In this document: positions 11,832 to 37,185 of the stretch, piece after piece | Position numbering within the stretch: the first letter of the stretch is position 1 | Layout: each line of letters opens with the position of its first letter | The notes under the pieces: generated by a model | Told to the model about the DNA's origin: nothing | Databases searched by the model: none | The model's input: the letters and a program-made list of their open reading frames with translations, nothing else | Made by a program: the position numbers and the translations under genes | Assembly (NCBI GenBank): GCA_031265685.1 | Contig: JAISCI010000102.1 | Coordinates: 339-64,338, forward strand | Direction of reading: 5' to 3' | DNA length: 64,000 nt | Source: Clostridiales bacterium | GTDB lineage: Bacteria > Bacillota > Clostridia > Lachnospirales > WRAX01

Positions 11832-12272
11832 ATGCGTATTTCGGCAAAAGCGCGGTACGCGCTCGCCTGCGCGGTGACGTTGGCGCGAAAATTCGATACC
11901 GGGGATTTCGTCACTGCGGTCAGCTTGGCGGACGACCTCCAAATATCCAAGATATACTTGGAGCAGGTTTTCGCCCTTCTCAAACGCGCCGGGGTAGTCG
12001 TCTCCAGCAAGGGCGCCGGCGGCGGGTACCGGCTTTCGGATCGGCCTGCCGCGCTCACGGCTCTCGACGTGCTCTCCGCGACGGACGCTCTTCTGACCGA
12101 GAGCGCCGAGGAGACCGTGGCGCGGACGGCGCCGGGGATTGAGACCGTCATGCGCGGTATGGTGTTCGACGCGATGGACCGCGCGATCGCCGAGGCGTTA
12201 GGCGGCGTGACGCTGCAAGCGCTGGCGGAGACGGCCGCCGGGCTTGACGGCGAGTATATGTACTATTTATAG
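11832..12272 (+). CDS. Rrf2-family transcriptional regulator
   Basis: 146 aa. MRISAKARYALACAVTLA...SLADDLQISKIYLEQVFALLKRAGVVVSSKGAGGGYRL. Confidence 0.9.
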   Translation: MRISAKARYALACAVTLARKFDTGDFVTAVSLADDLQISKIYLEQVFALLKRAGVVVSSKGAGGGYRLSDRPAALTALDVLSATDALLTESAEETVARTAPGIETVMRGMVFDAMDRAIAEALGGVTLQALAETAAGLDGEYMYYL

Positions 12273-21645: not shown

Positions 21646-22119
21646 ATGCGTGATAAATTTTTCATGTCTCTCGCTTTGGCCGAGGCGCGGGCCGCCGCCG
21701 CCGCCGGCGAGACGCCCATTGGCTGCGCGATAGCCTTCCGGGGGCAGCTGATCGCCCTGGGGCGCAACACGCGCAACGCCGCGAAGAACGCCCTGGGACA
21801 CGCCGAGATAGCCGCTATCGGCGCGGCGTGCGCCTTTATGGGCGACTGGCGACTCGAGGGGTGCGAGCTGTTCGTGACGGCAGAGCCTTGCCCGATGTGC
21901 GCCGGGGCGATCATTCAGGCGCGGATACCGCGCGTCGTATTCGGCGCGGCGAATAAAAAAGCCGGCTGTGCCGGCTCCGTGATCAATATCCTCGACTGCC
22001 CCGGGTTTAACCACCGCTGCGCGGTCGCGGGCGGAGTGCTGGAGTCGGAGTGCTCCGCGCTGATGACGGGATTTTTCACTGACTTCCGCCGCCGAGCGAG
22101 CCTTCAAGCTCCGCGATGA
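21646..22119 (+). CDS. tadA: tRNA adenosine(34) deaminase
   Basis: 157 aa. HAEIAAI and PCPMCAGA zinc motifs. The 3' end overlaps the convergent gene 22076..23425 by 44 nt. Confidence 0.9.
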   Translation: MRDKFFMSLALAEARAAAAAGETPIGCAIAFRGQLIALGRNTRNAAKNALGHAEIAAIGAACAFMGDWRLEGCELFVTAEPCPMCAGAIIQARIPRVVFGAANKKAGCAGSVINILDCPGFNHRCAVAGGVLESECSALMTGFFTDFRRRASLQAPR

Positions 22120-23425: not shown

Positions 23426-23436
23426 CGCTCAATCCC

Positions 23437-23745
23437 CTAATCCAGATGCTCGATTATTTTTACCGCCAGAAAATAAAACGGGTACATAAGCAGCGCGGCG
23501 GCGGCGGAGACGAGCGTGAAGCCGACCGGAAACATAACCACGTTGATCAAGCCGCCGATTATCCCGTCAAAGGTCGAGTTGCCGATCAGCCCCTGCGTCG
23601 ATTCGCCGAGGGAACCGAGAGTGAGCTGCATAAGGCCGAAGAACACCCCCGCCGGAAACCCCGACATAACAAACACCTTGACATAGTCCTTGAAGCCGAG
23701 CTTGACGAACCCCAAGACCTTACGCATAGCCGCGCTCCCAGTCAT
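23437..23745 (-). CDS. small membrane protein (2-3 TM helices)
   Basis: 102 aa. The track ATG at 23745 abuts the repeat terminus (ggaattagtATG). An alternative start is Met7 (23727). The stop is 11 nt upstream of the next gene's start. Confidence 0.6.
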   Translation of the reverse strand: MTGSAAMRKVLGFVKLGFKDYVKVFVMSGFPAGVFFGLMQLTLGSLGESTQGLIGNSTFDGIIGGLINVVMFPVGFTLVSAAAALLMYPFYFLAVKIIEHLD

Positions 23746-23853
23746 ACTAATTCCATTAGATTTGCGCCGAATATTTTTTCGAGCTTGCGTGTCCGCAAGG
23801 TTTCAATCGCGGAACCAGAAAATATTCGGCGTCTTTTAGAATGGAATCAGTAT
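23744..23853. repeat. family-A palindromic element
   Basis: atactaattccatt / ccgaatattttttcgag / GC-rich core / agaaaatattcgg / agaatggaatcagtat. Confidence 0.85.
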
Positions 23854-23966
23854 CAAAAGATACTACATTATTAATCGGCTGAACAGCCGTCTGATTTGAT
23901 ACAAAAAGAGCATACACTATCGTTATAAGAAAATCAATTAAAAACCGTAGCAAAAAAGCAGGCCTT

Positions 23967-24059
23967 ATACTAATCTCCGTCTAATTGAGAGAAAAGATTT
24001 TTCAAGACGATCCGCGCGGGCTTGAAAAATCTTTTCATACCTATAAACGGAGATTAGTA
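23967..24059. repeat. family-A palindromic element (CTCCGT terminus variant)
   Basis: atactaatctccgt / gaaaagatttttcaag / acgatccgcgcggg / cttgaaaaatcttttc / acggagattagta. Confidence 0.85.
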
Positions 24060-24070
24060 CCGCGGCCCGC

Positions 24071-26140
24071 CTATAACCGGATCAGCTCCGCTATGCTCAT
24101 AGCAATACTATCCAATATATCATAAAACTTATCATTCAGATCGTAATACTTCCCGTCGGGCTTCGTCAGCGGGTCGTAGGATTCGATCGACTCGCGATCC
24201 TTCCGCGCGACTACGTAGCACGTCACGCCGTTTTCGCGCAACATATCGCGGATATCCTCGACCGAGCGGCCCGAGCGCGTCGGCACGTGCGGCGGCGCGT
24301 CGGTTATCAGTATAAATATCGCGCGTTCGCCCGGGGCGCTCTCCGACGAGCGCAGCAGACCGACCGCCGTCTCCAGCGCATCCAGCGACGATTCGGGGAT
24401 GTCGCCGCCGTATGTGCGCGGGATGTTTTTCACCTGTTTCTGGAACTTTTCCACGTCCGACGTGAAGCTGTATACCGAGGGCTTCTCCTTCTCGTACAAG
24501 TCGCCGAAACCGATCAGCCCCAGACTGGCGCCCGCTCCCTTGCCGCGCACTATCTCCGAGAACTCGATCGCGCGCTCCTTGACGCCGTTAATATATGTGT
24601 CCATGCTGCCCGTCGTGTCGATGACGAACACGATCCTGACGCTGCCGATGCCGGACGGTCGGCGCGGCGGCGCGGACGTCTTCGAGCGGTCAAACATCGC
24701 CCGTTCGCTCCGCCCGGTGGAAAGGTCGCGCACGTATACCTCGAACAGGTTGTCGGCGGAGATGGCGTAGGTTATCTCCAACTGCGTCGTGCCGCGCAGA
24801 CCGCCGAACTCGACGCTGCCGATATACTTGCGCTCGGCCTCGGCGCCCGCCGCCCACTGGTACACGTCCACGCTGACGGTCGTAGCCCCGGACATAGACG
24901 CGAAGTTGGAGTCCGAAAAACTGGACGGGATCTGGCTGCCCATCGGGATGATCGGTATCAGCGACTTCTCGCGCGTTGCGATATTGGTTACGGCCTCGGT
25001 GCCGAATATCTGCCGCGTTATCTGACCGACGGACACCTTGCGCTCGGGCAGGTGGATCAGGTAATTGTATATCGCCGCGCCCATCGCGACGCTCTTCGCC
25101 GGGTCGGTCGCGCGGTAGGGATCCTTCAAAAGCCCGGCCACCATACGTCTCACCATCGGGATGAGCGTCGATCCGCCGACGAGTATAACCTTCGATATAT
25201 CGTCCGCGTCGCGCCCCGAACGCTTAAGCGCTTCCGTGACAATCTCTCGGCTGCGGTCGATATACTTGCGTATCATGGACTCGAATTCCTCGCGGGTTAT
25301 CTCCAGCGAAAGGCTCTTCGGCTCGCCGCCCACGATGACGAGCGGGCTTACGCGCACCACGGCCTTGCTCGTTCCGGAAAGCTTCTTCTTCGTCTCCTCG
25401 GCGACTGCCTTTAGTTTCTGGAGGACGCGCCGCGCGTCGGCTCCGGGCAGATCGCTTAAGTCGATGCCTTCGGATTCCATGAACTTCGTCTTGAAGTGGC
25501 GTATCAGCTCGGAATCGAAATCGTCGCCGCCCAGTTCCATATCTCCGACGTCGGACAGTTCCTGGAAAATTTCCTGTCCGCTTTCGTCCTTCGATACTTT
25601 GAGCACGCACGCGTCGAACGTTCCGCCGCCAAGATCGTAAACGAGTAACGTCTGCGCCAGCCCCTGCCGGTAGCCATACTCGATCGCGGCGGCCAGCGGC
25701 TCGGAAAGCAGGTGGACGGTCGCGAACCCTGCCAGCAGCCCCGCCTGCCGCGTCGCGTATATCTGTCGGTCGTTGAAATACGCCGGGTGCGTTATAACTA
25801 CCTCGCCGAAGGCCTCGCCGGACGCTTCCTCGGCGGCGGCCTTGAGCCGGCGCAGTATGTCCGCGCTAACTTCCTCGGGGGTTTTGCGGACCGCTCCCAG
25901 TTCCAGCGCCTCGCCCGAACCCATCCGCCGCTTGACGGATATGACCGTCGATTCGGGGTAGATGATCGCGCCGGACTTCGCCTCCTCGCCGACGATAACG
26001 GATCCGTCCTCGGCGTAATGGACGACGGACGGAAGTATCTCCGAGCCGTCGATGGGAACGGCGGCGACGCCGTCCGTCCGGTCGCTGTAGATAACGGCGC
26101 ACGAGTTTGTCGTGCCCAGGTCGATGCCCAAGTATCCCAT
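24071..26140 (-). CDS. Hsp70-family ATPase fused to a C-terminal von Willebrand factor A domain
   Basis: I trimmed the track ORF to the ATG at 26140 (AGGAGA RBS), giving 689 aa. Motifs are LGIDLGTTNSCAV, VYDLGGGTFDACVL and ILVGGSTLIPMV. An SBD-beta is present (VSVDVYQW...LEITYAISADNLFEVYVRD) but no helical lid. The vWA domain has a MIDAS motif (VFVIDTTGSM ... ILITDAPPH). Confidence 0.85.
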   Translation of the reverse strand: MGYLGIDLGTTNSCAVIYSDRTDGVAAVPIDGSEILPSVVHYAEDGSVIVGEEAKSGAIIYPESTVISVKRRMGSGEALELGAVRKTPEEVSADILRRLKAAAEEASGEAFGEVVITHPAYFNDRQIYATRQAGLLAGFATVHLLSEPLAAAIEYGYRQGLAQTLLVYDLGGGTFDACVLKVSKDESGQEIFQELSDVGDMELGGDDFDSELIRHFKTKFMESEGIDLSDLPGADARRVLQKLKAVAEETKKKLSGTSKAVVRVSPLVIVGGEPKSLSLEITREEFESMIRKYIDRSREIVTEALKRSGRDADDISKVILVGGSTLIPMVRRMVAGLLKDPYRATDPAKSVAMGAAIYNYLIHLPERKVSVGQITRQIFGTEAVTNIATREKSLIPIIPMGSQIPSSFSDSNFASMSGATTVSVDVYQWAAGAEAERKYIGSVEFGGLRGTTQLEITYAISADNLFEVYVRDLSTGRSERAMFDRSKTSAPPRRPSGIGSVRIVFVIDTTGSMDTYINGVKERAIEFSEIVRGKGAGASLGLIGFGDLYEKEKPSVYSFTSDVEKFQKQVKNIPRTYGGDIPESSLDALETAVGLLRSSESAPGERAIFILITDAPPHVPTRSGRSVEDIRDMLRENGVTCYVVARKDRESIESYDPLTKPDGKYYDLNDKFYDILDSIAMSIAELIRL

Positions 26141-26167
26141 ACCAATTCTCCTGTCTGTTAAAGCTCC

Positions 26168-26338
26168 GCGCCAATCTCCATTTAAGAATATAGAAAAGAT
26201 TTTCAAGTCCGCGCCTGAAGCAGGGTAATTTTCGCGTGATGAATTTTGCGCGGCTTACGCAAAATTCCATCACGCGAAAATGCGATCGAAACTCGTCCAT
26301 ACAAAAATTTACTTCCGCCAATCTAACGGAGATCAGTA
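26168..26338. repeat. family-A-like composite element with a long family-B hairpin (26227..26280)
   Basis: ccaatctccattt / gaaaagattttcaag / ... aattttcgcgtgatgaattttgcg cggctta cgcaaaattccatcacgcgaaaa ... / acggagatcagtat. It fills the whole gap between two Hsp70 genes. Confidence 0.8.
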
Positions 26339-27934
26339 TTACACCCGCGTCTTCTTCCCCCGCTGGGGCGTGAAGTTTCGCTTATAGCCGCCGCCGGCGT
26401 CCTCAACCATGCCGGAGACTACCCCGCCCTCCTCGGCGGCGGACAGCGTGATTCGCAGCCTTGTCCCGCCGCTGGGGCGCGGAGGAAGTCCCGTTACCTC
26501 TATGTCGCCGATCAGCCGGCAGTCCTCCACGGGATCGTCCCGGTTGATCCGCTCCAGAACGCGCAGATCGAAACGCGTCATGTCTTCGGGGCGGCTTCCG
26601 GAGAGCGTGAACACGGCGTCTTTGCGCGCCAGAGCGTAAGGCGTGCCGCGCCGGATCAGCGTATAGAAAACCTTTTTCGCGCCGTTTGTCACCTCCAGCC
26701 CGATGTCGTGCGGAACGCTGCCGGAGAACGCAACGGCGCGGCGCTCGGCGGAGAACTCCCGCCCGGCGAGAAGCCCCATCTTCATCGCCGCGTAGTACGC
26801 CGCGCCGACCGATATGTCCAGCGCGGGGCGCTCGGACTGATATATCTTCGATTCGTCGCCGAACACGCCGTTCAACATATCCCGCACCCAGGGCGCGGCC
26901 GACGATCCGCCCTCCAACAGCACGCGGCTGATGTCCCCGGGAGCCAGAGCGCCCTTGTACGCGCCGCGCAGCGCCTTTTGCGTAAGCTGACGCGTCTTCT
27001 CGATAAACGCCGCCGCCAGTCCCTCATAGCGCTCGCGCGTCAGGTTCTCGATAAACGGCGGTATCATAAACGTGAACGGCACGCGGAACGACTTCGCGCC
27101 CGAGAGCCGTTCCTTCGCCTCGCGCGCGCGGATCTCCACTTCGGCGCGGTTTTCCGGGACGATCGATTCGCGGGTCTGGCCGGTTTTCGCCTCTATCCAG
27201 TCGTAGCACTGTTCGGTAAGAATAGCGTCGAGCGCGTCTCCGCCGTGGGCCGCGTCTCCGCCCTCGGATATGACCGTCAGCCGCGTCAGTCCCGGCGGTT
27301 CCTCCGTCACGCTGAAAACGGTTATATCGAGCGTGCCGCCGCCGAAGTCGAACACCAGCACGCGCTCGCCGTCCTCAAGCTCGCGCTTGAAATTCATAGC
27401 GAGCGCGGCGGCCTTCGGCTCCTCGATCAGGCAGATCAGGCCGCCGCCCAGCCCCGCCAGCTCGCAGGCGCGGATTGTCGCCTTCTTCGCGGCGTCGTCG
27501 AACCCATAAGGCACTGATACGACCAGTCCGGCTATCTCGGCTTTCGGGTTTATCGCTCGCGCGCGCGACGCCAGTTCTTCCAATATCTTCGCGGATATTT
27601 CCTCCGGCGCGTAGTCCTTGCCGCCCAGCCGGAACGTCTTGTCCGTGCCCATATACCGCTTCGCCGAACGCACCGTGGAATCGGGGTACAGCTTTATCGA
27701 GCGGTAGGCCTCCTCGCCGACGACCCACTCGCCGCCGTCGCGCCACTGCACAACGGAAGGCAGCGGTATCTTGCCGAACCCGTCCGAAACGTCGATGGTT
27801 TCGGGCGCGCCGGACGACGGCGAATAATAACTGACGACGGAGTTGGTCGTGCCTAAGTCTATGCCGAGCACGAACCAGTCCTCGGGCAGGGACCCGCGCC
27901 GGTCTATATCTTTTTTGCAATCTTCCCACTTCAT
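26339..27934 (-). CDS. Hsp70-family ATPase, lidless paralogue
   Basis: 531 aa. LGIDLGTTNSVVSYY, VFDFGGGTLDITVF, LLEGGSSAAPWV. It ends just after the beta-sandwich SBD. Confidence 0.85.
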   Translation of the reverse strand: MKWEDCKKDIDRRGSLPEDWFVLGIDLGTTNSVVSYYSPSSGAPETIDVSDGFGKIPLPSVVQWRDGGEWVVGEEAYRSIKLYPDSTVRSAKRYMGTDKTFRLGGKDYAPEEISAKILEELASRARAINPKAEIAGLVVSVPYGFDDAAKKATIRACELAGLGGGLICLIEEPKAAALAMNFKRELEDGERVLVFDFGGGTLDITVFSVTEEPPGLTRLTVISEGGDAAHGGDALDAILTEQCYDWIEAKTGQTRESIVPENRAEVEIRAREAKERLSGAKSFRVPFTFMIPPFIENLTRERYEGLAAAFIEKTRQLTQKALRGAYKGALAPGDISRVLLEGGSSAAPWVRDMLNGVFGDESKIYQSERPALDISVGAAYYAAMKMGLLAGREFSAERRAVAFSGSVPHDIGLEVTNGAKKVFYTLIRRGTPYALARKDAVFTLSGSRPEDMTRFDLRVLERINRDDPVEDCRLIGDIEVTGLPPRPSGGTRLRITLSAAEEGGVVSGMVEDAGGGYKRNFTPQRGKKTRV

Positions 27935-27935: not shown

Positions 27936-29381
27936 TTATATTGTCTCCAGTTTTACTTTTGTCCGCGCCGACCCGCCGGCGGACGGAAACTGCTCGCCGA
28001 ACCCGACGTCCCGGACGGCGACGTCCAGCGTGTCGGCCGCCGAAAAAGCCAGCGACACGCCAACGACAGTCGTCCCCGCGGGACGTCTCGGAAGGCCGGT
28101 CAGCGTCAGATCAGTCAGTTTCACGCCGTCCCGCCCGCCCGAATAAATCTCGACGACCGGCGGCGCGTCTGTCGGCTCGGTCAGCAGAAATGTTCCTTCC
28201 GGGAATTTATCCCACCAATACGCCCCTTCCGGCGCTATCGGGAAGAACCGCGCCGCGTTCCCCGCGCGCACGCGCACGCCCACTCCGCGAGAAAGGCGGT
28301 TAACGTCTCGCAGTTTCGGAAAGGCGGGCGCCAGACCCAGCCCAGCCGCCGCTATCAGACACGCACCCTCGGCCAGAGCGACGGCGGGAACCTTCGGGCA
28401 GATAAGCTCCGCGCGCGGGAACGCCTTTGCCGCGGCCGCCCTCGCGAACGGGTACTCAAACCCGCCGCCCATAAGACATACCGCCGAGACCGCGGCGCGC
28501 TCCCCCGCCGCCGTGACCGCCGCTCTGATCCCCTCGGCGAAAGGTTTTGTCACGGCACGGATATCGGCGTCGCGGGCGGTCATCGCGAAAGGCGGGTACG
28601 CGAAAGATACGTAGAGTTTCACGTCCTTGGCGGACTGCCTCCCCAGAAGCAGCCGCCGGTGCGAACGGCAGAACCGCTCAAGCTGACGGACGTCCCGCGC
28701 GGAAGGCTCCCCGGCGGACTTCTCGTATAGTCCGGCCACAAAAGAGTCGGCCGCCCTGCCCAGAGCGTCCGCACCCAGATCGGGGTACGACACGCTCGAC
28801 AGGCAATCCACAAACCCGCCGCGCCTCTCGTACAGCCCGACGCGAAACGCCCCGGCTCCGAAGTCCGCGATAATGGTCGGCTGGCCATCACGCCCCGCGA
28901 GCAGCCGGGCGGCTGCGCATTCCCGAGCGTCGCGTATGTCCGCGAGCGCGGAGCCGTATCCGGCGTGGACGAACGCCGCGCGAAGATCCTCGGCGGCGGC
29001 GGCCGGCCAATCGGCGGGGGACGCCGCCACTATCGCCTCGACGCCGGCTTTCGGATCCGCGCCTTTCACGAAAGCGATCATGTCGCGGATATATTCGCCG
29101 GTTATCTCGCGTATCGGCGTAGGGCGGCCCCCGGCGCTTGCGTACTCTCCCTTGCCCAGTCGCTCGGGAAGACGCGTAAAAACCGCGCCGTCTTCTCCGC
29201 CGGAGAGCGCGTATTCCCCGAACACCCATTCGCCGTTCGCGTATTCGACCACCGTCGGAGAGGACGGCACACCGTACCCTCCGGATATGTCCACCGCGGC
29301 GGCCTCGCCGCGGACGGCGTCGTAATACGCCACGGCGGATGAATCCGCTCCGATGTCGATCCCGAGAACGAACCCGCTCAT
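27936..29381 (-). CDS. Hsp70/actin-fold protein with degenerate nucleotide-binding motifs
   Basis: 481 aa and colinear with the neighbouring Hsp70s, but GIDIGADSSAVAYY replaces GTTNS, ADFGAGAFRVGLY replaces DFGGGTFD, and CLMGGGFEYPFA replaces the adenosine motif. Confidence 0.7.
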   Translation of the reverse strand: MSGFVLGIDIGADSSAVAYYDAVRGEAAAVDISGGYGVPSSPTVVEYANGEWVFGEYALSGGEDGAVFTRLPERLGKGEYASAGGRPTPIREITGEYIRDMIAFVKGADPKAGVEAIVAASPADWPAAAAEDLRAAFVHAGYGSALADIRDARECAAARLLAGRDGQPTIIADFGAGAFRVGLYERRGGFVDCLSSVSYPDLGADALGRAADSFVAGLYEKSAGEPSARDVRQLERFCRSHRRLLLGRQSAKDVKLYVSFAYPPFAMTARDADIRAVTKPFAEGIRAAVTAAGERAAVSAVCLMGGGFEYPFARAAAAKAFPRAELICPKVPAVALAEGACLIAAAGLGLAPAFPKLRDVNRLSRGVGVRVRAGNAARFFPIAPEGAYWWDKFPEGTFLLTEPTDAPPVVEIYSGGRDGVKLTDLTLTGLPRRPAGTTVVGVSLAFSAADTLDVAVRDVGFGEQFPSAGGSARTKVKLETI

Positions 29382-30169
29382 CTTGCCGCTATGACGTTCG
29401 CGCGGACCAGCGCCTTATCGCCCTCGCGCCAGCCGCGCCCGCATACCGCGATTATCTCGCCGCGCTTTCGCTCCGGGTGCGGCTCGGCGGCCAGCGCCAC
29501 GTGCCAGCGTCCGGAGAACATCTCTCCCGGCTGCGGCTCGACTGGGAATATACCCGCTTCGGCCAGCAGTCTCTCGATTCCAAGCGACGTGCCCGCGCAA
29601 AGGCCCGCTAGCTTCCGGGCGGCGGGATCGCCGGACTGCGCCAGGCGCGGAACGGAGTAGTACATCATCTCGTCGAAGGTGGACACCTCGAACAGCAGCG
29701 CGTCTTTCAGGAAAGCCGCGCGGGATTTTTCCGCCGCCGCGAGTACGCGCGCTCGCTCGGCAGCGCGTTTCTCACGGATCAGCTTCGCGGAGCGCCCGTC
29801 CGGCGAGGTTATGGGCGAAACGCCTTCCAGCGTCTTTTCGGAAGCTTCGCGCGCACCCTCGGCGGACTGGCGCAGACTGTCCGCCTTGATGGCTATGGCC
29901 TCCGCGACGCCCCGCGCGATTGTTTCGGTCTCGTTGGTGAATTCGGCGGACGACACGAAAGCCGAAACGCCGTCGAGCAGTTCCGCGAAAGCCAGCGCCA
30001 TGTCGGCGGGCTTCGCGAGCAATCGCGCCGCGTCGGCGAGCGTCCGGCGATAGTCCGCGTCCCAGCGGGAGAAGGCGGATTCCCTCGCGCGGAACCTGCG
30101 GGCTTCCTCCGCCGCGCGCCGGTTCTGGTAATGGAGTTTTAAGCGCTCATGTTTTTCTCTGGATGGCAT
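29378..30169 (-). CDS. GrpE-like nucleotide exchange factor
   Basis: I trimmed the track ORF to the ATG at 30169 (GAGGGA RBS), giving 263 aa. A long helical N-terminal part is followed by a C-terminus LLAEAGIFPVEPQPGEMFSGRWHVALAAE...GEIIAVCGRGWREGDKALVRANVIAAR, which follows the GrpE beta-domain pattern (G-x-x-x-I-x-x-x-G-x-x-FDP-x-x-H-x-A...G-Y...R-x-A-x-V). Confidence 0.6.
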   Translation of the reverse strand: MPSREKHERLKLHYQNRRAAEEARRFRARESAFSRWDADYRRTLADAARLLAKPADMALAFAELLDGVSAFVSSAEFTNETETIARGVAEAIAIKADSLRQSAEGAREASEKTLEGVSPITSPDGRSAKLIREKRAAERARVLAAAEKSRAAFLKDALLFEVSTFDEMMYYSVPRLAQSGDPAARKLAGLCAGTSLGIERLLAEAGIFPVEPQPGEMFSGRWHVALAAEPHPERKRGEIIAVCGRGWREGDKALVRANVIAAR

Positions 30170-30177
30170 TTTATCCC

Positions 30178-31860
30178 TCAATACAGATCGTCCACAGTCA
30201 GTTCCGTGACCAGCCCGCCCGCCGACAGCGATTCCGCCATGACGCGCAGCATGTTGTCCTGCCCGACACTGAACACGACGCGCACGCGCTCTTGCCCCTT
30301 CGGTCCCTGCGGTATCCCGCGGAGGCTCGTGCCCGAGAGCCGCTTCATGCCGTCGCGGTAGACGTAATCCGGCGAGCCGTCCGTCGCGGGCGCGGTGTTT
30401 TCGTATACGACTATCGCCATGCTGGACAGGTTGTCGAAACCGGTCGTCAGCGTCTCGGGGCATTCCACCGTGAGGCCCTCGGGCGGGATGTCCATGCCGG
30501 AATCCACTATTTTAAGGAATCGTCGCCCATGAAGCTCCAGCCCCAGCGGGTGAATCGTTCTCTCTTTGACCTTGACGATGGGTTCCGCTATGTCGGGCAT
30601 CATGATCATTTCGCAATAAACGGCCGCCCCGCGCGAGATAGAGAGGGCGGGGCTGACCTTGGACTTATACGGCGCCCTGCCGAACTTCTCCTCGACGCGA
30701 TTGGCCGCGAGCGGTATCGCCGAGCTTCCCCCGACGAGGAACACCTCGTCGATGTCCCCGGCGGAAAGCCCTGCCGCCTCGAGACATTTATCAACGCATG
30801 CCAGCGTGGAATCCACCATGTCCGACAGAGTCTTTCCCTCAAACTTCCCAAACGAAACGTCGTCCTGACCCAGGCGGTTGACGCGCGCGTGCGTCTCGAG
30901 CTGTTCGCGGGTTATTTCCATATTTATGCTGACGACGATTGGTTCCTGCAGGAACGGGCTGAGCGTGACCTTGGCGCTCTTCGCCTGACTGAGCCGTTCC
31001 TTGGCGACGTTCGCGGCCTGGCGCAGACGCGCCTGAGCCGTCTTTTTCTGACGCCTCGACACGCCGTCGTCCACTTGCTCGTCGAAGATGTCTATTTCGC
31101 CGTTTGTAAGGTTCTTGAACTCTTCGTAAATAATATCCATGACCAGCGCGTCCGCGTCGTCGCCGCCCAGCCGGTTGTCGCCGTAGGTGGACGCTACCGA
31201 GATGACCGGCTCGTCGCCGGGTTTCGCGTCTATATCGAGTATGCAGGCGTCGAACGTTCCGCCGCCAAAGTCGTATATGAGGACCTTCTTGGCGGAGGAT
31301 TCGCCGATGGCGTAGCTGATCGCGGCGGCGGCGGGTTCAAGCCGAAGATACACGCTGTCCTCGTCGAATCCGGCGAGCACGGCGGCCTCTTTCGTCACGC
31401 GCTTCTGCTTGTCCGTGGAATTGGCGGGCACGGTTATAACGCAGCCCGAAAACTCGCCCGGTATGCCCAGTTCTTCCCGCGCGTACTCGTCGGCTTTGCG
31501 CTTCAGGCAGCCGAGTATCTCCCCGGCGATCTGCGCCGGCGTGAAGGCGTGTTCCTCGCCGCCCGCCTCGACTACGATTTTTTCGTCCGAACCCAGCAGT
31601 CGCTTCACCGAAAGCACCGTGGACGCCGGGAATATCGCGGCGGCTTCCTTCGCTTCCGCGCCGAACACTCGGGAGAGCTTGCCCGGCTCGTCCGGGTCCG
31701 GCTCGAACTGAACCGCCGTCGGGAAGATATTGGCGCCGTCGATAGGGATAGTCTGCGCCTCCCCATCCTTAAAGTTAAATATGCTGACGACGGAGTTGGT
31801 TGTGCCGAAGTCCACGCCGAGATACAGCCCCCGCGCCGTGTCGAGACCGATTGTTCCCAT
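30178..31860 (-). CDS. Hsp70-family ATPase, lidless paralogue
   Basis: 560 aa. LGVDFGTTNSVVSIF, IYDFGGGTFDACIL, FLVGGSSAIPLA. It ends just after the beta-sandwich SBD. Confidence 0.85.
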   Translation of the reverse strand: MGTIGLDTARGLYLGVDFGTTNSVVSIFNFKDGEAQTIPIDGANIFPTAVQFEPDPDEPGKLSRVFGAEAKEAAAIFPASTVLSVKRLLGSDEKIVVEAGGEEHAFTPAQIAGEILGCLKRKADEYAREELGIPGEFSGCVITVPANSTDKQKRVTKEAAVLAGFDEDSVYLRLEPAAAAISYAIGESSAKKVLIYDFGGGTFDACILDIDAKPGDEPVISVASTYGDNRLGGDDADALVMDIIYEEFKNLTNGEIDIFDEQVDDGVSRRQKKTAQARLRQAANVAKERLSQAKSAKVTLSPFLQEPIVVSINMEITREQLETHARVNRLGQDDVSFGKFEGKTLSDMVDSTLACVDKCLEAAGLSAGDIDEVFLVGGSSAIPLAANRVEEKFGRAPYKSKVSPALSISRGAAVYCEMIMMPDIAEPIVKVKERTIHPLGLELHGRRFLKIVDSGMDIPPEGLTVECPETLTTGFDNLSSMAIVVYENTAPATDGSPDYVYRDGMKRLSGTSLRGIPQGPKGQERVRVVFSVGQDNMLRVMAESLSAGGLVTELTVDDLY

Positions 31861-31872: not shown

Positions 31873-34800
31873 TTAGAGTAGTATCGCCCTGGCCCGCGGG
31901 ACAGGCGAGAGAGCCTTTTCGGCGGAGCGTTCGGCAAGCTCCTCCCGCCCGCGCGCGAGATGAACCGCGGCGTCGTTGACGGCCTGCCAGCCGCCCTCGC
32001 CAAGCCCAAGCTCCGCCTTCGCGACGGCAAGCGTCCGGCTGGCGGTCTCGGTTTCCCCGCCCGCACCGCGCTCGACGAACCGATACCTGATCCTGTCGCC
32101 GTGGAACGCGCGGATATTCGCGGCATACACGCCGAAGCGGACGTATTTCGCCGGGACGCCGCGTTCGGGGCCGCCCGCCGAATACACCAGGGAGACGTTC
32201 CTCCCGCGCCGCCCTCTGTGCTCAAGCGGCTGGTTTTCCTCTATATACGGCGTCCGCGCGGATTTGTCTTTGATCGTTTCCAGTGCCGGCGGGATAACGC
32301 CCAGTTTTTCGGCAGTGGCCGCCGCGCGCGCGACGACCTCGCCGGACGGCTTGACACCTCTGGCGTATACCGCGCAGAGAGCGAAAACGGTCGTATCTTC
32401 CGGATCCGCCCCGGACAGGCAAAGGCCCTCCAGCGCCGCTACCGCTTCCAGCGCGGGTTCCAGACCGTCAAGCTCAATCCCCCTGCACAGCGCCGCCGCG
32501 TATGCCCGGACATGAGCCGATTTCGCCGCCCGCGGCGCTTCCCGCGCGAACGCCGCCTGAGCCGCCCCGGACATATCACGCGTCAGCGCCGCCGAATCCA
32601 GTATCTCCCTGTCGAGCGCGGCGGAGCCGCCGCCAGCGCGGATCGCGGCCTCGGCCAGCCGAGCCATGTCCGCGACACTGCCCGCGCTGCCGGCGGCGGC
32701 TTTCGCCACGCCCGCGTCATACCATCCGCCCAGCGTCAGCTCGCGGCAGACCGGCCCTATCACGGCGCGATCCGCCGCCGACCCCGACCCGGCGACAGCT
32801 CTCGCCGCCGCGAACTTCGTCTCGTCGTCAATCGCCGGAGATTTGGACGCGAGCAGCTTCGCGAGGCGCTCCATGTCGCCCGCCGCCGCCAGCGCCGCGG
32901 CTATAGGCGCCGCGAACACCGCCGGAACGCTTCTCGCGTCCGTCCCGGCGTATCTCTCCGCCGCTTCCGCCGTCAGTCCCGTTTTGGCGAGCAAGCCCGC
33001 CGCCGCCGCCGAAACCGCCCGCAACAGTTCGGGCGAGAGCGAGGGTTCTCGCAGAGCTTTCGTCAGCATCGACAGTTTATTGGCGGCCGATATGCCGCGC
33101 GTCCGGGGATCGTCGTCTATGATCCCCTTGGAGAGCGCCGCGAGCAGTCTCGGCGACGGGTTGCCGTCCAGAAAAAACCGCGTGTACAGACGTATCCCAG
33201 CGTTCTCGATCATGCGGACAGCCGTGAATCCGCCGCCGGCGGCCGCGCCCGCGCCGTCCAGAAACGCCGCCGAAAACCCGTGCCCCGCGGCTTCCGCGAC
33301 ACATGACGTGCCCGAGAAGGAGTAGTTTTCGGGAGCCGCCATCAGCGGGTCAAATACGCGAACCTGCCGAGCGGACTGATCCGCCGGCGACAGGCGGAAG
33401 CGGAACAGGTTGTCGCGCACAAGCCGTTCGGCCTTCTTATACAGCGGCGACGACCTGTCCGCGACGTCGAGGTAGAACGCGTACGCGCTCAGGAAGTATC
33501 GTCCCGTTTCGCCCGCCGTCAGCGACCGCTCGGCGAATTCCGCGATCCGGCGCGTCAGCGGGCCGACCGCCTGCTGGTTCTCGGGGCGGGTCAGCATCAG
33601 ATGGAACACGAAAGCGTCGTCCGCTCCCTCGGCGTACTCGCGCAGGGCGGCTGGCGGTACGTCCGGAACGGCCCGCCGCCGCGCCGACGTTATGACGGCG
33701 GCCGAAAGACCGGGTATGCTCAGGCCGGCGTTCAGCGCCGTGACATAATACCGGTAGGCCCGCTCGGAATAATCCGCCCGCGTGAGCGCCGACGAGCACA
33801 GCGCCGCCAGCAGCGACCGCTCCGGATACCGCCGGTAGACGCTGTCGGCGGCGGCCGGAGTCATGCGCGCCGCTATCGCCGCGCCATACATTCGGACGGC
33901 CCTCGAAATGTCCCGCCCCTTGGCCGCGCCCCACGCGACGGCTCCGAGAAAGAGCGAACGTCCCGGCGCGCCCGATATGTCCGTGTCCGGATCGGCGGCG
34001 CAAAGACAGTCGCACGCGCAATCAAGGAGCCGCCTCGAACGCTCCCCCAGCGCGAACGCTTCCGCGAGCGCCGCGAAGCCGCGAGCCGCGCCAAACGCCG
34101 TGAACGCCGCCATTCCCGCGTATGACGATTCGGACGAGCGAGCGAGCCGCCCCGCCTCGCGCCGCGCGGTGAACATCGAACCGCCGTCGGCCGCCGCGCG
34201 GCACCGCAGATATACGTACCGCGCCCATTCCTCCGGCGCCGTCTTTCTAAGCCGCCGGTCGCGCTTCGCGGCGGATTTGAGCTGCAGCCGGGCGCTCTCA
34301 AGTAGCCCGGCGGATATGTCGCGTTCTATCGTGTCGAGCGTGTCGGGCGGGATCGGGCTTTTGAGCTTAATCGACACGGCGACGCGCGTTACCCCAGCCG
34401 GGGTGATCAGATCGACGGCAGCTTCGGCCTCGGTCGTCTTACGCCCAAGTTCCGGCGCGACGGTGAACGGTATGCCCGCCTTGTCCGCGATGAGGTATCG
34501 CCGCGCCGAGAACCTCGTGAGCCGGTCCCTCGGCGCCGCCTCGACGAGCATGTCGCGGCGCGTCGAGTTGACGACGATTATCGAGCCGGATTCGCCGGGC
34601 GCGTATGTCTCGCGGTCCGTCCGCGCGGAGAGCGACCGGCGCCGCGCCGCCATGATCGTAACGCCCGAGCCGTCCGACAGATTGACGCGGGCGGCGGCGA
34701 AGCGCGATTTAAGCAGCCCGGGATATATGATGAAGCGTTTTTCGGCAAAGCCGTCTTTCGAGAAATCCGACGGCGAGACGACCGGTTCCAGCAACTTGAG

Positions 34801-35412
34801 CCACGGCGCGTCCGCGGTCAGCTTATCCGACGCGACGCCCCAGCCATTGAGACGCAACGGAATAACCCCAGTCGCCGAATCGGTCTCACCGGGATTGAAC
34901 TCGAAACGCAGCAGCCGTTCCGTGGGCGCGACGGCGGCGCGTTCCTTAAACCCCGACGTCACAAGGAAGCTGTCCAGTCCCTCGGCGCCGCCCCGCCGGA
35001 ACCGCTCGTACAGATCCATATGCCTGAAACCAATCTTTTGCAGCCACTCGCGGAACGTTTCCGCGCCGAACACCCTGGCAGCCCCGGCAAAGTCCGACCG
35101 GGCGTAATCGGCGAACTCGCCGACGGAACGGCAGCGCGTACCAGTCAAGACCGCGGAAGGGTCCCCCAAGACGCGCACGCGGCCCTCGCCGCCGCTCGTG
35201 ATCAGCGACACCGAAGCGGTCTCCGCCCCGGAACCGCCCCGATACGTCACGGCGACGCGGCAGTCTCCGTCGAACTCCGCCGGGGAGACGGTTATCCCGG
35301 GCGAATCGGCGGCGATCCCGCCAAACAACCGCCCTGTTCCGGCGTTTGTGATAGAAAAGAAGGCGGTGTCGCCCGCCCCTGACAGCCTGACTTCGCGGAG
35401 AGACAGCCGCAA
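31873..35412 (-). CDS. 1179-aa protein of unrecognised family (three N-terminal beta-rich modules plus ~800 aa Ala-rich helical region)
   Basis: Continuous ORF with coding-like composition. The track start is TTG at 35412. The frame stays open 19 more codons upstream (TTEAEYERVIDVLEDGKPE) with no canonical start codon. No HPD/J-domain, Walker or other motif is recognisable. Confidence 0.7.
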   Translation of the reverse strand: MRLSLREVRLSGAGDTAFFSITNAGTGRLFGGIAADSPGITVSPAEFDGDCRVAVTYRGGSGAETASVSLITSGGEGRVRVLGDPSAVLTGTRCRSVGEFADYARSDFAGAARVFGAETFREWLQKIGFRHMDLYERFRRGGAEGLDSFLVTSGFKERAAVAPTERLLRFEFNPGETDSATGVIPLRLNGWGVASDKLTADAPWLKLLEPVVSPSDFSKDGFAEKRFIIYPGLLKSRFAAARVNLSDGSGVTIMAARRRSLSARTDRETYAPGESGSIIVVNSTRRDMLVEAAPRDRLTRFSARRYLIADKAGIPFTVAPELGRKTTEAEAAVDLITPAGVTRVAVSIKLKSPIPPDTLDTIERDISAGLLESARLQLKSAAKRDRRLRKTAPEEWARYVYLRCRAAADGGSMFTARREAGRLARSSESSYAGMAAFTAFGAARGFAALAEAFALGERSRRLLDCACDCLCAADPDTDISGAPGRSLFLGAVAWGAAKGRDISRAVRMYGAAIAARMTPAAADSVYRRYPERSLLAALCSSALTRADYSERAYRYYVTALNAGLSIPGLSAAVITSARRRAVPDVPPAALREYAEGADDAFVFHLMLTRPENQQAVGPLTRRIAEFAERSLTAGETGRYFLSAYAFYLDVADRSSPLYKKAERLVRDNLFRFRLSPADQSARQVRVFDPLMAAPENYSFSGTSCVAEAAGHGFSAAFLDGAGAAAGGGFTAVRMIENAGIRLYTRFFLDGNPSPRLLAALSKGIIDDDPRTRGISAANKLSMLTKALREPSLSPELLRAVSAAAAGLLAKTGLTAEAAERYAGTDARSVPAVFAAPIAAALAAAGDMERLAKLLASKSPAIDDETKFAAARAVAGSGSAADRAVIGPVCRELTLGGWYDAGVAKAAAGSAGSVADMARLAEAAIRAGGGSAALDREILDSAALTRDMSGAAQAAFAREAPRAAKSAHVRAYAAALCRGIELDGLEPALEAVAALEGLCLSGADPEDTTVFALCAVYARGVKPSGEVVARAAATAEKLGVIPPALETIKDKSARTPYIEENQPLEHRGRRGRNVSLVYSAGGPERGVPAKYVRFGVYAANIRAFHGDRIRYRFVERGAGGETETASRTLAVAKAELGLGEGGWQAVNDAAVHLARGREELAERSAEKALSPVPRARAILL

Positions 35413-37174: not shown

Positions 37175-37185
37175 TTGGAGCCCTC

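What the first reader, a model, noticed from the sequence alone, without database searches (positions are those of the whole stretch)
24071..26140. Hsp70 NBD+SBD-beta fused directly to a vWA (MIDAS) domain in place of the lid
Seen: after the SBD-beta signature (VSVDVYQWAAGAEAERKYIGSVEFGGLRG...LEITYAISADNLFEVYVRDLSTGRS) the protein continues into VRIVFVIDTTGSMDTYINGVKERAIEF...GFGDLYEKE...TYGGDIPESSLDAL...AIFILITDAPPH. That is a complete vWA fold with a D-x-T-x-S ... T ... D MIDAS pattern. Established: in DnaK the helical lid closes over bound substrate. Inference: replacing the lid with an adhesion module suggests the chaperone is tethered to a specific partner or polymerises. This gene is separated from the upstream five only by a structured repeat, so its stoichiometry could be set separately.
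Basis: partly seen in the sequence, partly recalled or inferred. Interest (0 to 1): 0.6.

Follow-up and report, generated by a model that had tools for sequence, protein, structure and literature searches.

The report
Lidless Hsp70 fused to MIDAS domain
This gene encodes a real, highly conserved and so far unstudied chaperone: an Hsp70 lacking its lid and carrying an integrin-like metal-dependent binding domain, as one subunit of a conserved gene cluster of several lidless Hsp70s found in three bacterial phyla.

Summary
Window 24071-26140 on the minus strand encodes a 689-aa protein. It has an ATPase-competent Hsp70 NBD and SBD-beta (aligning to DnaK 5-501), a Pro-containing linker of about 15 residues, and a complete vWA domain.

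Three corrections:
- The MIDAS is integrin-beta type (D508-x-T-x-S512 ... D580-x-P-E583 ... D614), not the D..T..D type.
- The vWA does not replace a lid. Every Hsp70 paralog in the cluster is lidless.
- The structured spacer upstream is lineage-specific. In most relatives the gene abuts or overlaps the preceding Hsp70 gene.

The protein is the best-conserved member (70-77% identity) of a syntenic cluster: DUF5717 (TPR-like), Hsp70a, GrpE-like, DUF5716 (a pseudo-ATPase Hsp70), Hsp70b, Hsp70-vWA, and usually a TPR protein. A motif scan found it in 187 of 185,579 representative species. Diverged Hsp70-vWA fusions sit in multi-Hsp70 clusters in cyanobacteria (with a GrpE-like gene) and in a Deinococcus MAG.

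I found no J-domain, no defence-system match, no plasmid or phage copy, and no paper on it.

Most likely the vWA is a built-in MIDAS adaptor that holds a specific partner for a dedicated, J-protein-independent multi-Hsp70 machine, analogous to MoxR-vWA pairs. Its biological role is unknown. I rate it a new variant of a known kind, interest about 0.65.

The parts
24071..26140 (-). Hsp70-vWA coding sequence (689 aa plus stop). It is NCBI protein MDR1210076.1, 'Hsp70 family protein', from a Clostridiales MAG.
25055..26140 (-). Hsp70 nucleotide-binding domain (about residues 1-362). Catalytic residues are intact: the equivalents of DnaK D8, T11-N13, K70, E171, D194, G196-T199 and D201.
24689..25054 (-). 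Non-canonical interdomain linker (KVSVGQI in place of DVLLLDV) followed by SBD-beta (to about residue 484, aligning to DnaK 393-501). Pocket and arch residues are changed but conserved within the family (F426N, M404V, A429S, Q433A).
24644..24688 (-). Linker between SBD-beta and vWA (residues 485-499, 'RSKTSAPPRRPSGIG'). It is low-confidence in the model, and 'APP' is nearly invariant.
24074..24643 (-). vWA domain (residues 500-689), integrin-betaI-like.
24605..24619 (-). MIDAS loop 1, D508-T-T510-G-S512 (followed by invariant M513).
24392..24403 (-). MIDAS/SyMBS-like loop D580-I-P582-E583. It aligns to integrin beta-3 D217-A-P-E220.
24287..24301 (-). MIDAS loop 3, D614-A-P-P-H618. It aligns to integrin beta 'DAxxH'.
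26141..26338 (-). Structured intergenic spacer with nested hairpins. It shares arm sequence with the element downstream of the gene. It has no U-tract after the main stem, no Rfam match and no promoter-like site.
23960..24070 (-). Long hairpin (arms of 39 nt) followed by a U-run. This is the probable terminator of the Hsp70-vWA gene and a member of the same repeat family.
26339..27934 (-). Hsp70b: a lidless Hsp70 paralog with an intact ATPase site.
27936..29381 (-). DUF5716 protein: an Hsp70-like protein whose catalytic K70, E171, T199 and D201 equivalents are lost, making it a pseudo-ATPase.
29378..30169 (-). GrpE-like protein, 263 aa here. The start is most likely the ATG at 30169, just after the Hsp70a stop. 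Only the C-terminal GrpE part is conserved, and relatives are roughly 490-660 aa.
30178..31860 (-). Hsp70a: a lidless Hsp70 paralog with an intact ATPase site and a conserved C-terminal tail ...VD(D/E)LY.
31873..35412 (-). DUF5717_N plus DUF5717 protein (1179 aa). It is helical-repeat/TPR-like in relatives, fast-evolving, and split into two genes in most relatives.

Best explanation
The gene encodes a cytosolic, ATP-hydrolysing but lidless Hsp70. Its C-terminal integrin-beta-like vWA domain acts as a built-in, metal-dependent (MIDAS) adaptor. The protein is one subunit of a dedicated multi-Hsp70 machine that does not appear to use a J-protein.

The other subunits are two further lidless Hsp70s (Hsp70a and Hsp70b), a catalytically dead Hsp70-like protein (DUF5716), the cluster's own GrpE-like nucleotide-exchange factor, and large TPR-like scaffold proteins (DUF5717, usually plus a 387-aa TPR protein).

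Proposed mechanism:
1. The MIDAS site clamps an acidic side chain of a defined partner, either a client or another subunit.
2. This holds the partner next to the open, lidless peptide-binding domains.
3. ATP cycles of the Hsp70s, reset by the GrpE-like factor, remodel or assemble that specific target. This differs from general folding.
4. The TPR-like proteins probably dock the conserved acidic-aromatic C-terminal tail of Hsp70a (...VDELY), as eukaryotic TPR co-chaperones dock EEVD.

Shown: the domain anatomy, the intact ATPase residues, the invariant MIDAS residues, the loss of J-domain and allostery residues, and the conserved synteny.

Inferred: MIDAS-mediated partner binding, hetero-oligomeric action, TPR-tail docking, and the biological role, which remains unknown.
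For: - Domains and boundaries are established.
- Catalytic NBD residues are kept in Hsp70-vWA, Hsp70a and Hsp70b but lost in DUF5716.
- Residues needed for DnaJ coupling and interdomain allostery are replaced in all paralogs: R167, N170, T173, the VLLL-D393 linker, K414 and N415.
- No J-domain was detected in any cluster protein, even at E<=1.
- The MIDAS set (D508, T510, S512, D580, E583, D614, H618) is invariant in 48 close homologs. It is also invariant in 9 diverged lineages at 30-37% overall identity.
- The gene order DUF5717, Hsp70a, GrpE-like, DUF5716, Hsp70b, Hsp70-vWA, TPR is conserved across most loci of Defluviitaleaceae, Epulopiscium, Tyzzerella and Anaeropeptidivorans relatives.
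- Hsp70-vWA is tightly coupled to Hsp70b in most loci.
- The three Hsp70s are far better conserved (72%, 66% and 61% against Anaeropeptidivorans) than the accessory proteins (22-28%). This holds despite 62% GC here against what I recall, from general knowledge, to be low-GC relatives.
- Independent lineages in a cyanobacterium and a Deinococcus MAG also embed an Hsp70-vWA among lidless Hsp70 genes, with a GrpE-like gene in the cyanobacterial cluster. Reciprocal best BLAST hints at subunit orthology.
- The VDELY tail of Hsp70a occurs in the TPR-containing Clostridial clusters. It is absent from the cyanobacterial and Deinococcus clusters, where no TPR protein was detected.
- Established knowledge (recalled): ATPase plus vWA/MIDAS pairs act as motor plus substrate adaptor. 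Examples are MoxR-vWA (RavA-ViaA, CbbQ-CbbO), Mg-chelatase BchD (an AAA+ module, Pro-rich linker and integrin I domain in one chain) and the Rea1/midasin MIDAS domain.
Against: - No partner or client is identified, and no interaction was modelled.
- The full-length AF2 model is poor (pLDDT 69, pTM 0.36), so the position of the vWA relative to SBD-beta is unknown.
- Metal binding is not shown. T510 replaces the canonical Ser, and the ADMIDAS Asp pair of integrins is not conserved.
- The cyanobacterial fusions carry a different vWA subtype that lacks D-x-P-E. The MIDAS detail may therefore not be the unifying feature.
- The window's own cluster lacks the TPR gene and has a truncated GrpE-like protein, so those parts are dispensable.
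- A canonical DnaJ elsewhere in the genome could still act on these proteins.
Confidence: 0.5

Rival explanations
1. The cluster is a biological-conflict (anti-phage or stress-sensing) system of the kind described for NTP-dependent chaperone plus vWA systems. Conserved Hsp70 engines would be coupled to rapidly diversifying TPR/DUF5717 sensors. The vWA would capture an invader-derived or effector peptide and trigger assembly.
For: - Accessory proteins evolve fast (22-48% identity) while the engines are conserved.
- Distribution across phyla is patchy: 187 of 185,579 species in the motif scan, plus cyanobacteria and Deinococcus.
- The cyanobacterial cluster sits beside a trypsin-like peptidase and a TerF-like vWA.
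- In Epulopiscium the cluster abuts a WYL regulator and CRISPR-Cas.
- The operon is often interrupted or fragmented in termite-gut genomes.
- Relatives of this vWA subtype occur in a vWA-FHA-PP2C-kinase cluster on Tolypothrix plasmids.
- Kaur et al. 2020 (PMC7159879) describe Hsp70 plus GrpE themes in GTPase-centred conflict systems.
Against: - There is no significant PADLOC match (best E about 1e-3, 16-18 bits).
- No recognisable effector (nuclease, pore-former or toxin) lies in the Clostridial cluster.
- No copy was found on plasmids or phages.
- The Hsp70 subunits are very strongly conserved, their GC matches the host, and the neighbours are housekeeping genes.
- No GTPase, GAP1, FNIII or MoxR component is present.
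Confidence: 0.22
2. The vWA acts within or between copies of the same protein. It could be a surrogate lid or regulator docking on its own SBD-beta. Alternatively, it could be a self-association module that polymerises the Hsp70 into a filament or lattice, which is the reader's 'polymerises' option.
For: - The vWA sits exactly where the lid would start and is joined by a short conserved linker.
- Hsp70 has an actin-like fold, and weak MreB, ParM and FtsA profile matches are seen.
- SBD pocket residues are changed but conserved. This is compatible with a fixed intramolecular or inter-subunit ligand.
- Kaur et al. speculate on cytoskeleton-like assemblies for Hsp70-containing systems.
Against: - The other paralogs do without a lid or any substitute.
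- The MreB-type matches are the generic actin-fold signal given by any Hsp70.
- No structural evidence exists, because the inter-domain placement in the model is unreliable.
Confidence: 0.15
3. The fusion is an annotation or assembly artefact (a lost stop codon or a chimeric contig), or a decaying pseudogene with no function.
For: None found. The only prompts are the repeat-rich flanks.
Against: - The same ~690-aa reading frame appears in all 120 listed clusters and in 80 retrieved genome loci, with 84% mean column identity.
- The protein carries an RBS.
- Exactly the same 689-aa protein is deposited in NCBI and JGI.
Confidence: 0.01

Closest known systems
DnaK / canonical Hsp70 (PF00012; E. 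coli DnaK, Geobacillus DnaK 2V7Y)
   Same: It has an actin-like NBD with all catalytic residues and an SBD-beta sandwich. It aligns to DnaK 5-501 at E 1e-77 to 1e-80. A GrpE-type exchange factor is encoded nearby.
   Different: - It has no alpha-helical lid and no acidic C-terminal tail.
- The hydrophobic VLLL linker and the J-domain and allostery residues are replaced.
- Its score is far below the NCBIfam DnaK cut-offs (333 bits against 648).
- The substrate-pocket residues are altered.
- A vWA domain is appended.
ATPase plus vWA/MIDAS motor-adaptor systems: MoxR-vWA pairs (RavA-ViaA, CbbQ-CbbO, NorQ-NorD), Mg-chelatase BchD, Rea1/midasin
   Same: An NTP-driven remodelling module is combined with a MIDAS-bearing vWA that recognises the target. 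In BchD and Rea1 the ATPase-type module and the integrin-like domain lie in one polypeptide, joined by a Pro-rich or acidic linker. This comparison rests on recalled knowledge.
   Different: The motor here is an Hsp70, not an AAA+ ring. No MoxR gene lies in the cluster. Target and metal dependence are unknown.
Integrin beta-subunit betaI domain, and bacterial integrin-like vWA adhesins (CglD-type and T9SS-secreted proteins)
   Same: - These are the best sequence matches in the PDB (integrin beta-6 and beta-3, E 5e-4).
- They give the highest structural TM scores (0.73-0.77).
- They share the DxSxSM ... DxPE ... (T/S)DAxxH motif set.
- A Bacteroidota T9SS protein shares 41% identity over the domain.
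   Different: - The protein is cytosolic: it has no signal peptide and the NBD starts at residue 4.
- The specificity-loop insertion of betaI is absent.
- The ADMIDAS Asp pair is not conserved.
- The first Ser is replaced by Thr.
GAP1-N2 GTPase-centred systems with Hsp70, GrpE, an NBD-only Hsp70 and DnaJ- or TPR-fused FNIII proteins (Kaur et al. 2020, PMC7159879)
   Same: Hsp70 and GrpE genes are clustered with an extra degenerate Hsp70 and TPR proteins in Firmicutes. vWA domains recur in that family of systems.
   Different: The cluster has no GTPase, GAP1, FNIII or DnaJ component. An Hsp70-vWA fusion does not appear in the passages of that paper I read.
Atypical Hsp70 partners: Hsp110/Sse1 and Ssz1 of the ribosome-associated complex
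   Same: These are sets of Hsp70 paralogs working as hetero-complexes. One member is a poor or dead ATPase, and DUF5716 parallels Ssz1. This comparison rests on recalled knowledge.
   Different: Those are eukaryotic, keep lid-type helical regions and depend on a J-protein (Zuo1). Homology does not go beyond the shared Hsp70 fold.

Membership tests
Hsp70/DnaK | Actin-like nucleotide-binding domain with catalytic residues (DnaK D8, K70, E171, D194, T199, D201) | tested here: met
   Pfam HSP70 E 4e-88. All residues are conserved in the alignment to DnaK.
Hsp70/DnaK | Beta-sandwich substrate-binding domain | tested here: met
   It aligns to DnaK 393-501. The pocket and arch residues differ (F426N, M404V, A429S).
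Hsp70/DnaK | Alpha-helical lid (DnaK ~508-605) | tested here: not met
   The Pfam profile is covered only to position 500 of 599. The PDB alignment ends at DnaK 501, and a vWA follows.
Hsp70/DnaK | Hydrophobic interdomain linker (VLLLD) and J-domain-responsive residues (R167, N170, T173, D393) | tested here: not met
   The linker is KVSVGQ. R167, N170 and T173 become H/gap, S and L. No J-domain protein is in the cluster.
Hsp70/DnaK | Score above the curated DnaK or HscA equivalog cut-offs | tested here: not met
   It scores 333 bits against a cut-off of 648 (NF001413), and 276 against 709 for HscA.
vWA domain with MIDAS (integrin betaI type) | Rossmann-like alpha/beta vWA fold | tested here: met
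   The AF2 model has pLDDT 85.8. Foldseek against the PDB gives E 4e-10 and TM up to 0.77. Three Pfam vWA families pass their thresholds.
vWA domain with MIDAS (integrin betaI type) | DxSxS loop, a middle ligand (Thr in alphaI, Glu in betaI) and a distal Asp | tested here: met
   D508-x-T510-x-S512, E583 (in DxPE) and D614 are present, invariant and aligned to beta-6 and beta-3. Thr replaces the first Ser.
vWA domain with MIDAS (integrin betaI type) | Adjacent metal sites (ADMIDAS Asp-Asp; SyMBS N215/D217/P219/E220) | tested here: inconclusive
   The ADMIDAS positions are T515 and Y516. The SyMBS positions are partly kept (D580, P582, E583, but G578 in place of Asn).
vWA domain with MIDAS (integrin betaI type) | Divalent-cation-dependent ligand binding | not testable with these tools
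   This needs biochemistry or a structure.
MoxR-vWA chaperone systems | A MoxR-class AAA+ ATPase encoded beside the vWA protein | tested here: not met
   No AAA+/MoxR hit appears in any cluster gene or neighbour.
GAP1-N2 GTPase-centred Hsp70/GrpE conflict systems (Kaur et al. 2020) | TRAFAC GTPase(s), GAP1 and an FNIII-repeat protein in the neighbourhood | tested here: not met
   Pfam finds none. The only extra P-loop protein (35513-37339) is uridine-kinase-like and was not found in any retrieved related locus, most of which do not reach that far upstream.
Catalogued anti-phage defence systems (PADLOC-DB 2.0) | Significant match to a defence-system protein model | tested here: not met
   Only marginal hits were found, E about 1e-3 at 16-18 bits: PDC-M61B for Hsp70-vWA and Hsp70b, and mad8 for the neighbouring 608-aa protein.

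The most novel reading that the evidence does not exclude
These clusters define a previously unrecognised class of bacterial Hsp70 machine. It would be a hetero-oligomer of three or four lidless Hsp70 paralogs, one catalytically dead and one carrying an integrin-like MIDAS clamp. It would have its own GrpE-like exchange factor and no J-protein, and would be ancient enough to be shared by Bacillota, Cyanobacteriota and Deinococcota. Substrate selection would be hard-wired through MIDAS and TPR contacts instead of J-domain proteins.
Probability: 0.35. Interest if true: 0.85.

Novelty: new variant of a known kind. Interest (0 to 1): 0.65.

Why it matters
Hsp70 function is thought to depend on three things: J-proteins that deliver clients, a lid that traps them, and allosteric coupling through a conserved linker. 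All three are missing or rewritten in this family. Yet it is under very strong purifying selection, at 70-77% identity between a 62% GC genome and genomes in which the few other shared proteins are only 40-53% identical.

If the MIDAS domain is the client or partner selector, this would be a natural example of Hsp70 targeting by a covalently attached adaptor. It would extend the 'ATPase plus vWA' logic, known only for AAA+ motors, to Hsp70.

It would also give a function to DUF5716 and DUF5717. And it would provide a compact, self-contained system for testing how lidless Hsp70s work.

Tried and rejected
- **Plus-strand reading.** It gives only stops. The gene is on the minus strand.
- **Longer ORF from TTG 26206.** Rejected: homologs start at MxYLGIDLGTT, and an RBS precedes ATG 26140.
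- **Literature.** Seven searches (DUF5716/DUF5717, Hsp70-vWA, atypical or lidless Hsp70, defence plus Hsp70) found no description of this architecture or cluster. The CoCoNuT Hsp70-like CnuD proteins are unrelated in context.
- **PADLOC.** No significant hit.
- **The downstream 449-aa protein as the missing TPR partner.** No similarity. No TPR homolog anywhere in the window at E<1e-3.
- **The 608-aa P-loop protein, the 102-aa membrane protein and the 449-aa protein as system members.** None was found in any retrieved related locus; for the 608-aa protein most loci do not reach that far upstream.
- **Search for DUF5717 homologs to reach further upstream.** Only 3 hits, all on short contigs.
- **Upstream survey from Hsp70a-centred metagenome loci.** It found only an optional membrane/coiled-coil protein in 6 loci and an unrelated aminotransferase.
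- **Full-length AF2 model.** Too poor for domain packing.
- **Plasmid and phage collections.** Only distant vWA proteins in unrelated clusters.
- **Rfam on the flanking structured elements.** No match.
- **Neighbour-joining tree of the paralogs.** Unresolved; only reciprocal BLAST hints at orthology.
Full report
**1. What is there**

The finding's coordinates are those of a minus-strand gene. Read on the plus strand the interval is full of stops. On the minus strand it is an open frame. The most likely start is the ATG at 26140, which is preceded by AGGAG and matches the N-terminus of all homologs (MxYLGIDLGTT). That gives 689 aa and a stop at 24071-24073. The same 689-aa protein is deposited as MDR1210076.1, 'Hsp70 family protein', from a 'Clostridiales bacterium' MAG contig of 64,627 nt.

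**2. Domain anatomy**

Pfam gives HSP70 over residues 4-487 (E 4e-88). The match covers profile positions 2-500 of 599, meaning NBD plus SBD-beta without the helical lid. From residue 503 three vWA families pass their thresholds: VWA_4 3e-12, VWA 2e-9 and VWA_2 4e-7. Against solved structures the Hsp70 part aligns to Geobacillus and E. coli DnaK at E 1e-77 to 1e-80. The alignment ends at DnaK residue 501, the last strand of SBD-beta.

Residues 485-499 form a short linker that is low-confidence in the model and contains a nearly invariant 'APP'. An AlphaFold2 model of residues 486-689 is confident (pLDDT 85.8, pTM 0.85) and shows alternating strands and helices typical of vWA. Foldseek against the PDB returns only vWA domains. 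The best hits are CMG2/ANTXR2 and the betaI domains of integrins beta-8, beta-6, beta-3 and beta-2 (E 4e-10 to 1e-8, query TM up to 0.77).

**3. The metal site is integrin-beta type**

A profile of the vWA region finds integrin beta-6 and beta-3 betaI domains as its best sequence matches in the PDB (E 5e-4). The aligned motifs are:

| Integrin beta-6 | This protein |
|---|---|
| DLSASMDDD | D508-T-T-G-S512-M-D-T-Y |
| NIDTPEGGFDA | G-G-D580-I-P-E583-S-S-L-D-A |
| VSDADSH | I-T-D614-A-P-P-H618 |

The middle ligand is therefore the Glu of a DxPE motif, as in beta-3 E220. The ADMIDAS Asp pair of integrins is not conserved (T515, Y516), and the SyMBS residues are only partly kept.

D508, T510, S512, M513, G578, G579, D580, E583, D614 and H618 are invariant in 48 close homologs. 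They are also invariant in nine representatives of diverged Hsp70-vWA lineages that share only 30-37% identity overall. Conservation of this kind argues for a functional binding site. Metal binding itself cannot be tested here.

**4. The Hsp70 part is active-looking but rewired**

I aligned the cluster paralogs with E. coli DnaK. Hsp70-vWA keeps D8, T11-N13, K70, E171, D194, G196-T199 and D201.

It does not keep the residues that couple DnaK to DnaJ and to its own SBD. R167, N170 and T173 are replaced. The VLLL-D393 linker reads KVSVGQ. K414 and N415 read M and G. Several pocket and arch residues also differ, but the replacements are conserved within the family (F426N, M404V/I, A429S, Q433A). 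The protein scores far below the curated DnaK and HscA cut-offs.

**5. It belongs to a conserved cluster of lidless Hsp70s**

Upstream on the same strand lie five genes:

| Window coordinates | Protein | Notes |
|---|---|---|
| 26339-27934 | Hsp70b | 531 aa, lidless, catalytic residues intact |
| 27936-29381 | DUF5716 protein | Hsp70-like; K70, E171, T199 and D201 equivalents lost, so a pseudo-ATPase |
| 29378-30169 | GrpE-like protein | 263 aa |
| 30178-31860 | Hsp70a | 560 aa, lidless, catalytic residues intact |
| 31873-35412 | DUF5717_N plus DUF5717 | 1179 aa; TPR-like in relatives |

The same order, usually followed by a 387-aa TPR protein, is found in Anaeropeptidivorans aminofermentans and Epulopiscium. 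It also holds in most of 80 genome loci and in metagenome loci.

Against Anaeropeptidivorans the identities are 72% (Hsp70-vWA), 66% (Hsp70a) and 61% (Hsp70b). They are only 28% (DUF5716), 28% (GrpE-like, C-terminal part) and 22% (DUF5717).

The window is about 62% GC throughout, cluster included. From general knowledge, the relatives are low-GC Lachnospirales-type organisms. The few other proteins shared between the window and those loci are 40-53% identical: a class IV aminotransferase, a HIT protein and an Rrf2 regulator. This is only a rough baseline, because orthology is not established. Even so, the Hsp70-vWA protein is evidently under very strong constraint and is native to this genome.

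No J-domain is detectable in any cluster protein, even at E<=1.

**6. The lid is missing from all the paralogs**

Hsp70a, Hsp70b and DUF5716 all end shortly after the beta domain. The same is true of the four extra Hsp70s in the cyanobacterial cluster. The vWA was therefore appended to one member of an already lidless family. It did not take the place of a lid.

**7. How widespread it is**

A scan of one genome per species for the motifs IDTTGSMD or TYINGVK[DE] found 187 species out of 185,579. The 80 best loci returned are mostly Defluviitaleaceae and other Clostridia MAGs, many from termite gut. Defluviitalea phaphyphila, Tyzzerella and Candidatus Epulonipiscium also appear. The best hit is 78% identical, so the window's own species is not among the representatives.

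A search of the vWA domain alone against 1.84 billion cluster representatives found 3,671 relatives at E<=1e-3 in many architectures. All the close family collapses into a single 50%-identity cluster. At least eight further ~690-aa representatives were identified as Hsp70-vWA: five by Pfam (P0128, P0140, P0147, P0159, P0170) and three by full-length alignment (P0173, P0211, P0255).

One of these is from a Deinococcus MAG, where the gene sits between other Hsp70 genes. A cyanobacterial lineage (Chroococcopsis, Pseudanabaenaceae) has the arrangement Hsp70, Hsp70-vWA, Hsp70, GrpE-like, Hsp70. There it lies next to a TerF-like vWA protein and a trypsin-like peptidase. Its vWA is a different subtype, lacking DxPE.

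Reciprocal best BLAST hits hint at subunit-by-subunit orthology across phyla: Hsp70a with Cy_522, Hsp70b with Cy_521, and the Hsp70-vWA proteins with each other. A quick tree does not resolve this. Tandem arrays of four Hsp70 paralogs without a vWA also exist.

No close relative occurs on plasmids or phages.

The same vWA subtype (41% identity) is used in secreted Bacteroidota T9SS proteins and resembles CglD-type adhesins. Here, though, the protein is cytosolic.

**8. The structured repeat**

The 198-nt spacer upstream of the gene folds much better than shuffled controls (-65.8 kcal/mol, z -4.45). It shares arm sequence with a long hairpin just downstream of the gene. That hairpin is followed by a U-run and is the probable terminator. 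A further hairpin element lies at 23746-23860.

None of these elements matches Rfam. No promoter-like site lies in the spacer, and the only terminator-like match there is a short 7-bp stem at its upstream edge, 26314-26330; nothing follows the main hairpin.

In related loci the distance from Hsp70b to Hsp70-vWA is at most 60 nt in 35 of 64 cases, with a 4-nt overlap in 7. It is 61-300 nt in 11 and above 300 nt in 18, and five loci have no Hsp70b upstream at all. The ancestral state is therefore tight coupling. The window's element is a lineage-specific insertion at a junction that has been hit repeatedly. It could still alter relative expression, as REP-type hairpins do in other operons (recalled knowledge), but it is not a conserved design feature.

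**9. How it most likely works**

My preferred reading is that this is a subunit of a dedicated multi-Hsp70 machine. Its vWA/MIDAS domain holds a specific acidic residue of a partner or client next to open, lidless peptide-binding domains. ATP turnover would be reset by the cluster's own GrpE-like factor.

This follows the established logic of ATPase plus vWA motor-adaptor systems: MoxR-vWA pairs, Mg-chelatase BchD and the Rea1 MIDAS. Here an Hsp70 takes the place of an AAA+ motor.

One further inference concerns Hsp70a. In 41 relatives it ends in a conserved ...TELSVDELY (VDDLY in the window). This acidic-aromatic tail is found in the Clostridial clusters, which also encode TPR-like proteins. 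It is absent from the cyanobacterial and Deinococcus clusters, where no TPR protein was detected. That suggests EEVD-like docking to TPR scaffolds.

These mechanistic steps are inferred, not shown. I put about 0.5 on the adaptor-in-a-dedicated-machine model.

**10. Rival readings**

- **Conflict or defence role (0.22).** It is favoured by the fast-evolving TPR/DUF5717 components, the patchy phyletic spread, the cyanobacterial neighbours and the thematic similarity to systems in Kaur et al. 2020. It is disfavoured by the lack of any effector, the lack of defence-database hits and mobile-element copies, and the extreme conservation of the engines.
- **Intramolecular pseudo-lid or self-polymerisation (0.15).** This cannot be excluded, because the full-length model is poor (pLDDT 69, pTM 0.36).
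- **Artefact.** This is excluded by conservation.

**11. Comparison with known systems, and novelty**

The protein is an Hsp70 by its NBD and SBD-beta. It fails three defining DnaK features: the lid, the linker and J-coupling residues, and the equivalog score. Its vWA meets the fold and MIDAS criteria of the integrin betaI type.

It is not a member of the MoxR-vWA systems, since no AAA+ gene is present. It is not a member of the GAP1-N2 GTPase systems either, since no GTPase, GAP1 or FNIII component is present. It matches no PADLOC model.

Seven full-text searches found no description of the fusion, of DUF5716/DUF5717 biology, or of this cluster. Databases call it only 'Hsp70 family protein'. 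I classify it as a new variant of a known kind: Hsp70 chaperone systems, and ATPase plus vWA adaptors. The whole cluster may represent a new class of J-independent Hsp70 machine.

Noticed in passing
window 23746-24070 and 26141-26338: A small family of long nested-hairpin (MITE/REP-like) elements flanks the Hsp70-vWA gene. The outer stems are UACUNAUCUCCGU/ACGGAGAUUAGUA and the inner stem is GAAAAGAUUUUUCAAG. RNA fold z-scores are -8.2 and -4.45. There is no Rfam match, and only these copies occur in the window.
   Followed up: partly
window 30178-30204 (C-terminus of Hsp70a), and Hsp70a orthologs in L001-L086: Hsp70a ends in a conserved acidic-aromatic tail, ...TELSVDELY (VDDLY here). It occurs in clusters that also encode TPR/DUF5717 proteins and is absent from the cyanobacterial and Deinococcus clusters. 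This is reminiscent of EEVD-TPR docking in eukaryotes.
   Followed up: partly
window 27936-29381 (-): The DUF5716 protein is a diverged Hsp70-like protein. It has lost the catalytic Lys, Glu, Thr and Asp (DnaK K70, E171, T199, D201) and is therefore a probable pseudo-ATPase subunit.
   Followed up: partly
window 29378-30463 (-): The mechanical ORF for the GrpE-like gene (361 aa) overlaps the end of Hsp70a by 285 nt. The likely start is the ATG at 30169, giving 263 aa. This is much shorter than the roughly 490-660 aa orthologs, and only the C-terminal GrpE part is retained.
   Followed up: partly
window 22076-23745 (-): Where relatives have a 387-aa TPR gene downstream of Hsp70-vWA, this genome has a 102-aa hydrophobic protein and a 449-aa protein with no family match. 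Neither occurs in any related locus.
   Followed up: partly
window 35513-37339 (-): A 608-aa protein has a C-terminal uridine-kinase/PRK-type P-loop domain and an unassigned N-terminal region of about 330 aa. It lies directly upstream of the cluster. It was not found in any retrieved related locus, but most of those loci do not extend that far upstream.
   Followed up: partly
L021, L027, L029, L033, L035, L038, L053, L058, L061, L073 (junction between Hsp70b and Hsp70-vWA): The Hsp70b to Hsp70-vWA junction has been split repeatedly in relatives, mostly uncultured Defluviitaleaceae/Clostridiales MAGs, by insertions of 0.4-7 kb. In five loci (L009, L037, L044, L047, L069) Hsp70-vWA stands without Hsp70b upstream. 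The inserted genes were not examined.
   Followed up: no
L098, L108, L112, L118, L121, L141 (gene just upstream of DUF5717_N): A 350-443-aa protein with N-terminal transmembrane helices and a long coiled-coil precedes the cluster on the same strand in six metagenome loci. It has no Pfam family and no homolog in the window. It may be an optional membrane anchor.
   Followed up: partly
L153 and L163 (metagenome loci): There are tandem arrays of four Hsp70 paralogs plus a 447-479-aa unknown protein, without any vWA. In L163 the array lies next to an M48 peptidase fragment. Multi-Hsp70 operons appear to be a wider, undescribed theme.
   Followed up: partly
L171 (Tolypothrix sp. PCC 7712 plasmid NZ_CP063787.1, 44-63 kb): A cluster of four vWA-domain proteins with FHA, PP2C phosphatase and Ser/Thr kinase genes carries a vWA of the same subtype (35% identity). 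It is not linked to any Hsp70.
   Followed up: no
window 10001-12000 and 58001-64000: These stretches have markedly lower GC (0.47-0.55) than the rest of the window (about 0.62). They may be foreign or non-coding segments.
   Followed up: no
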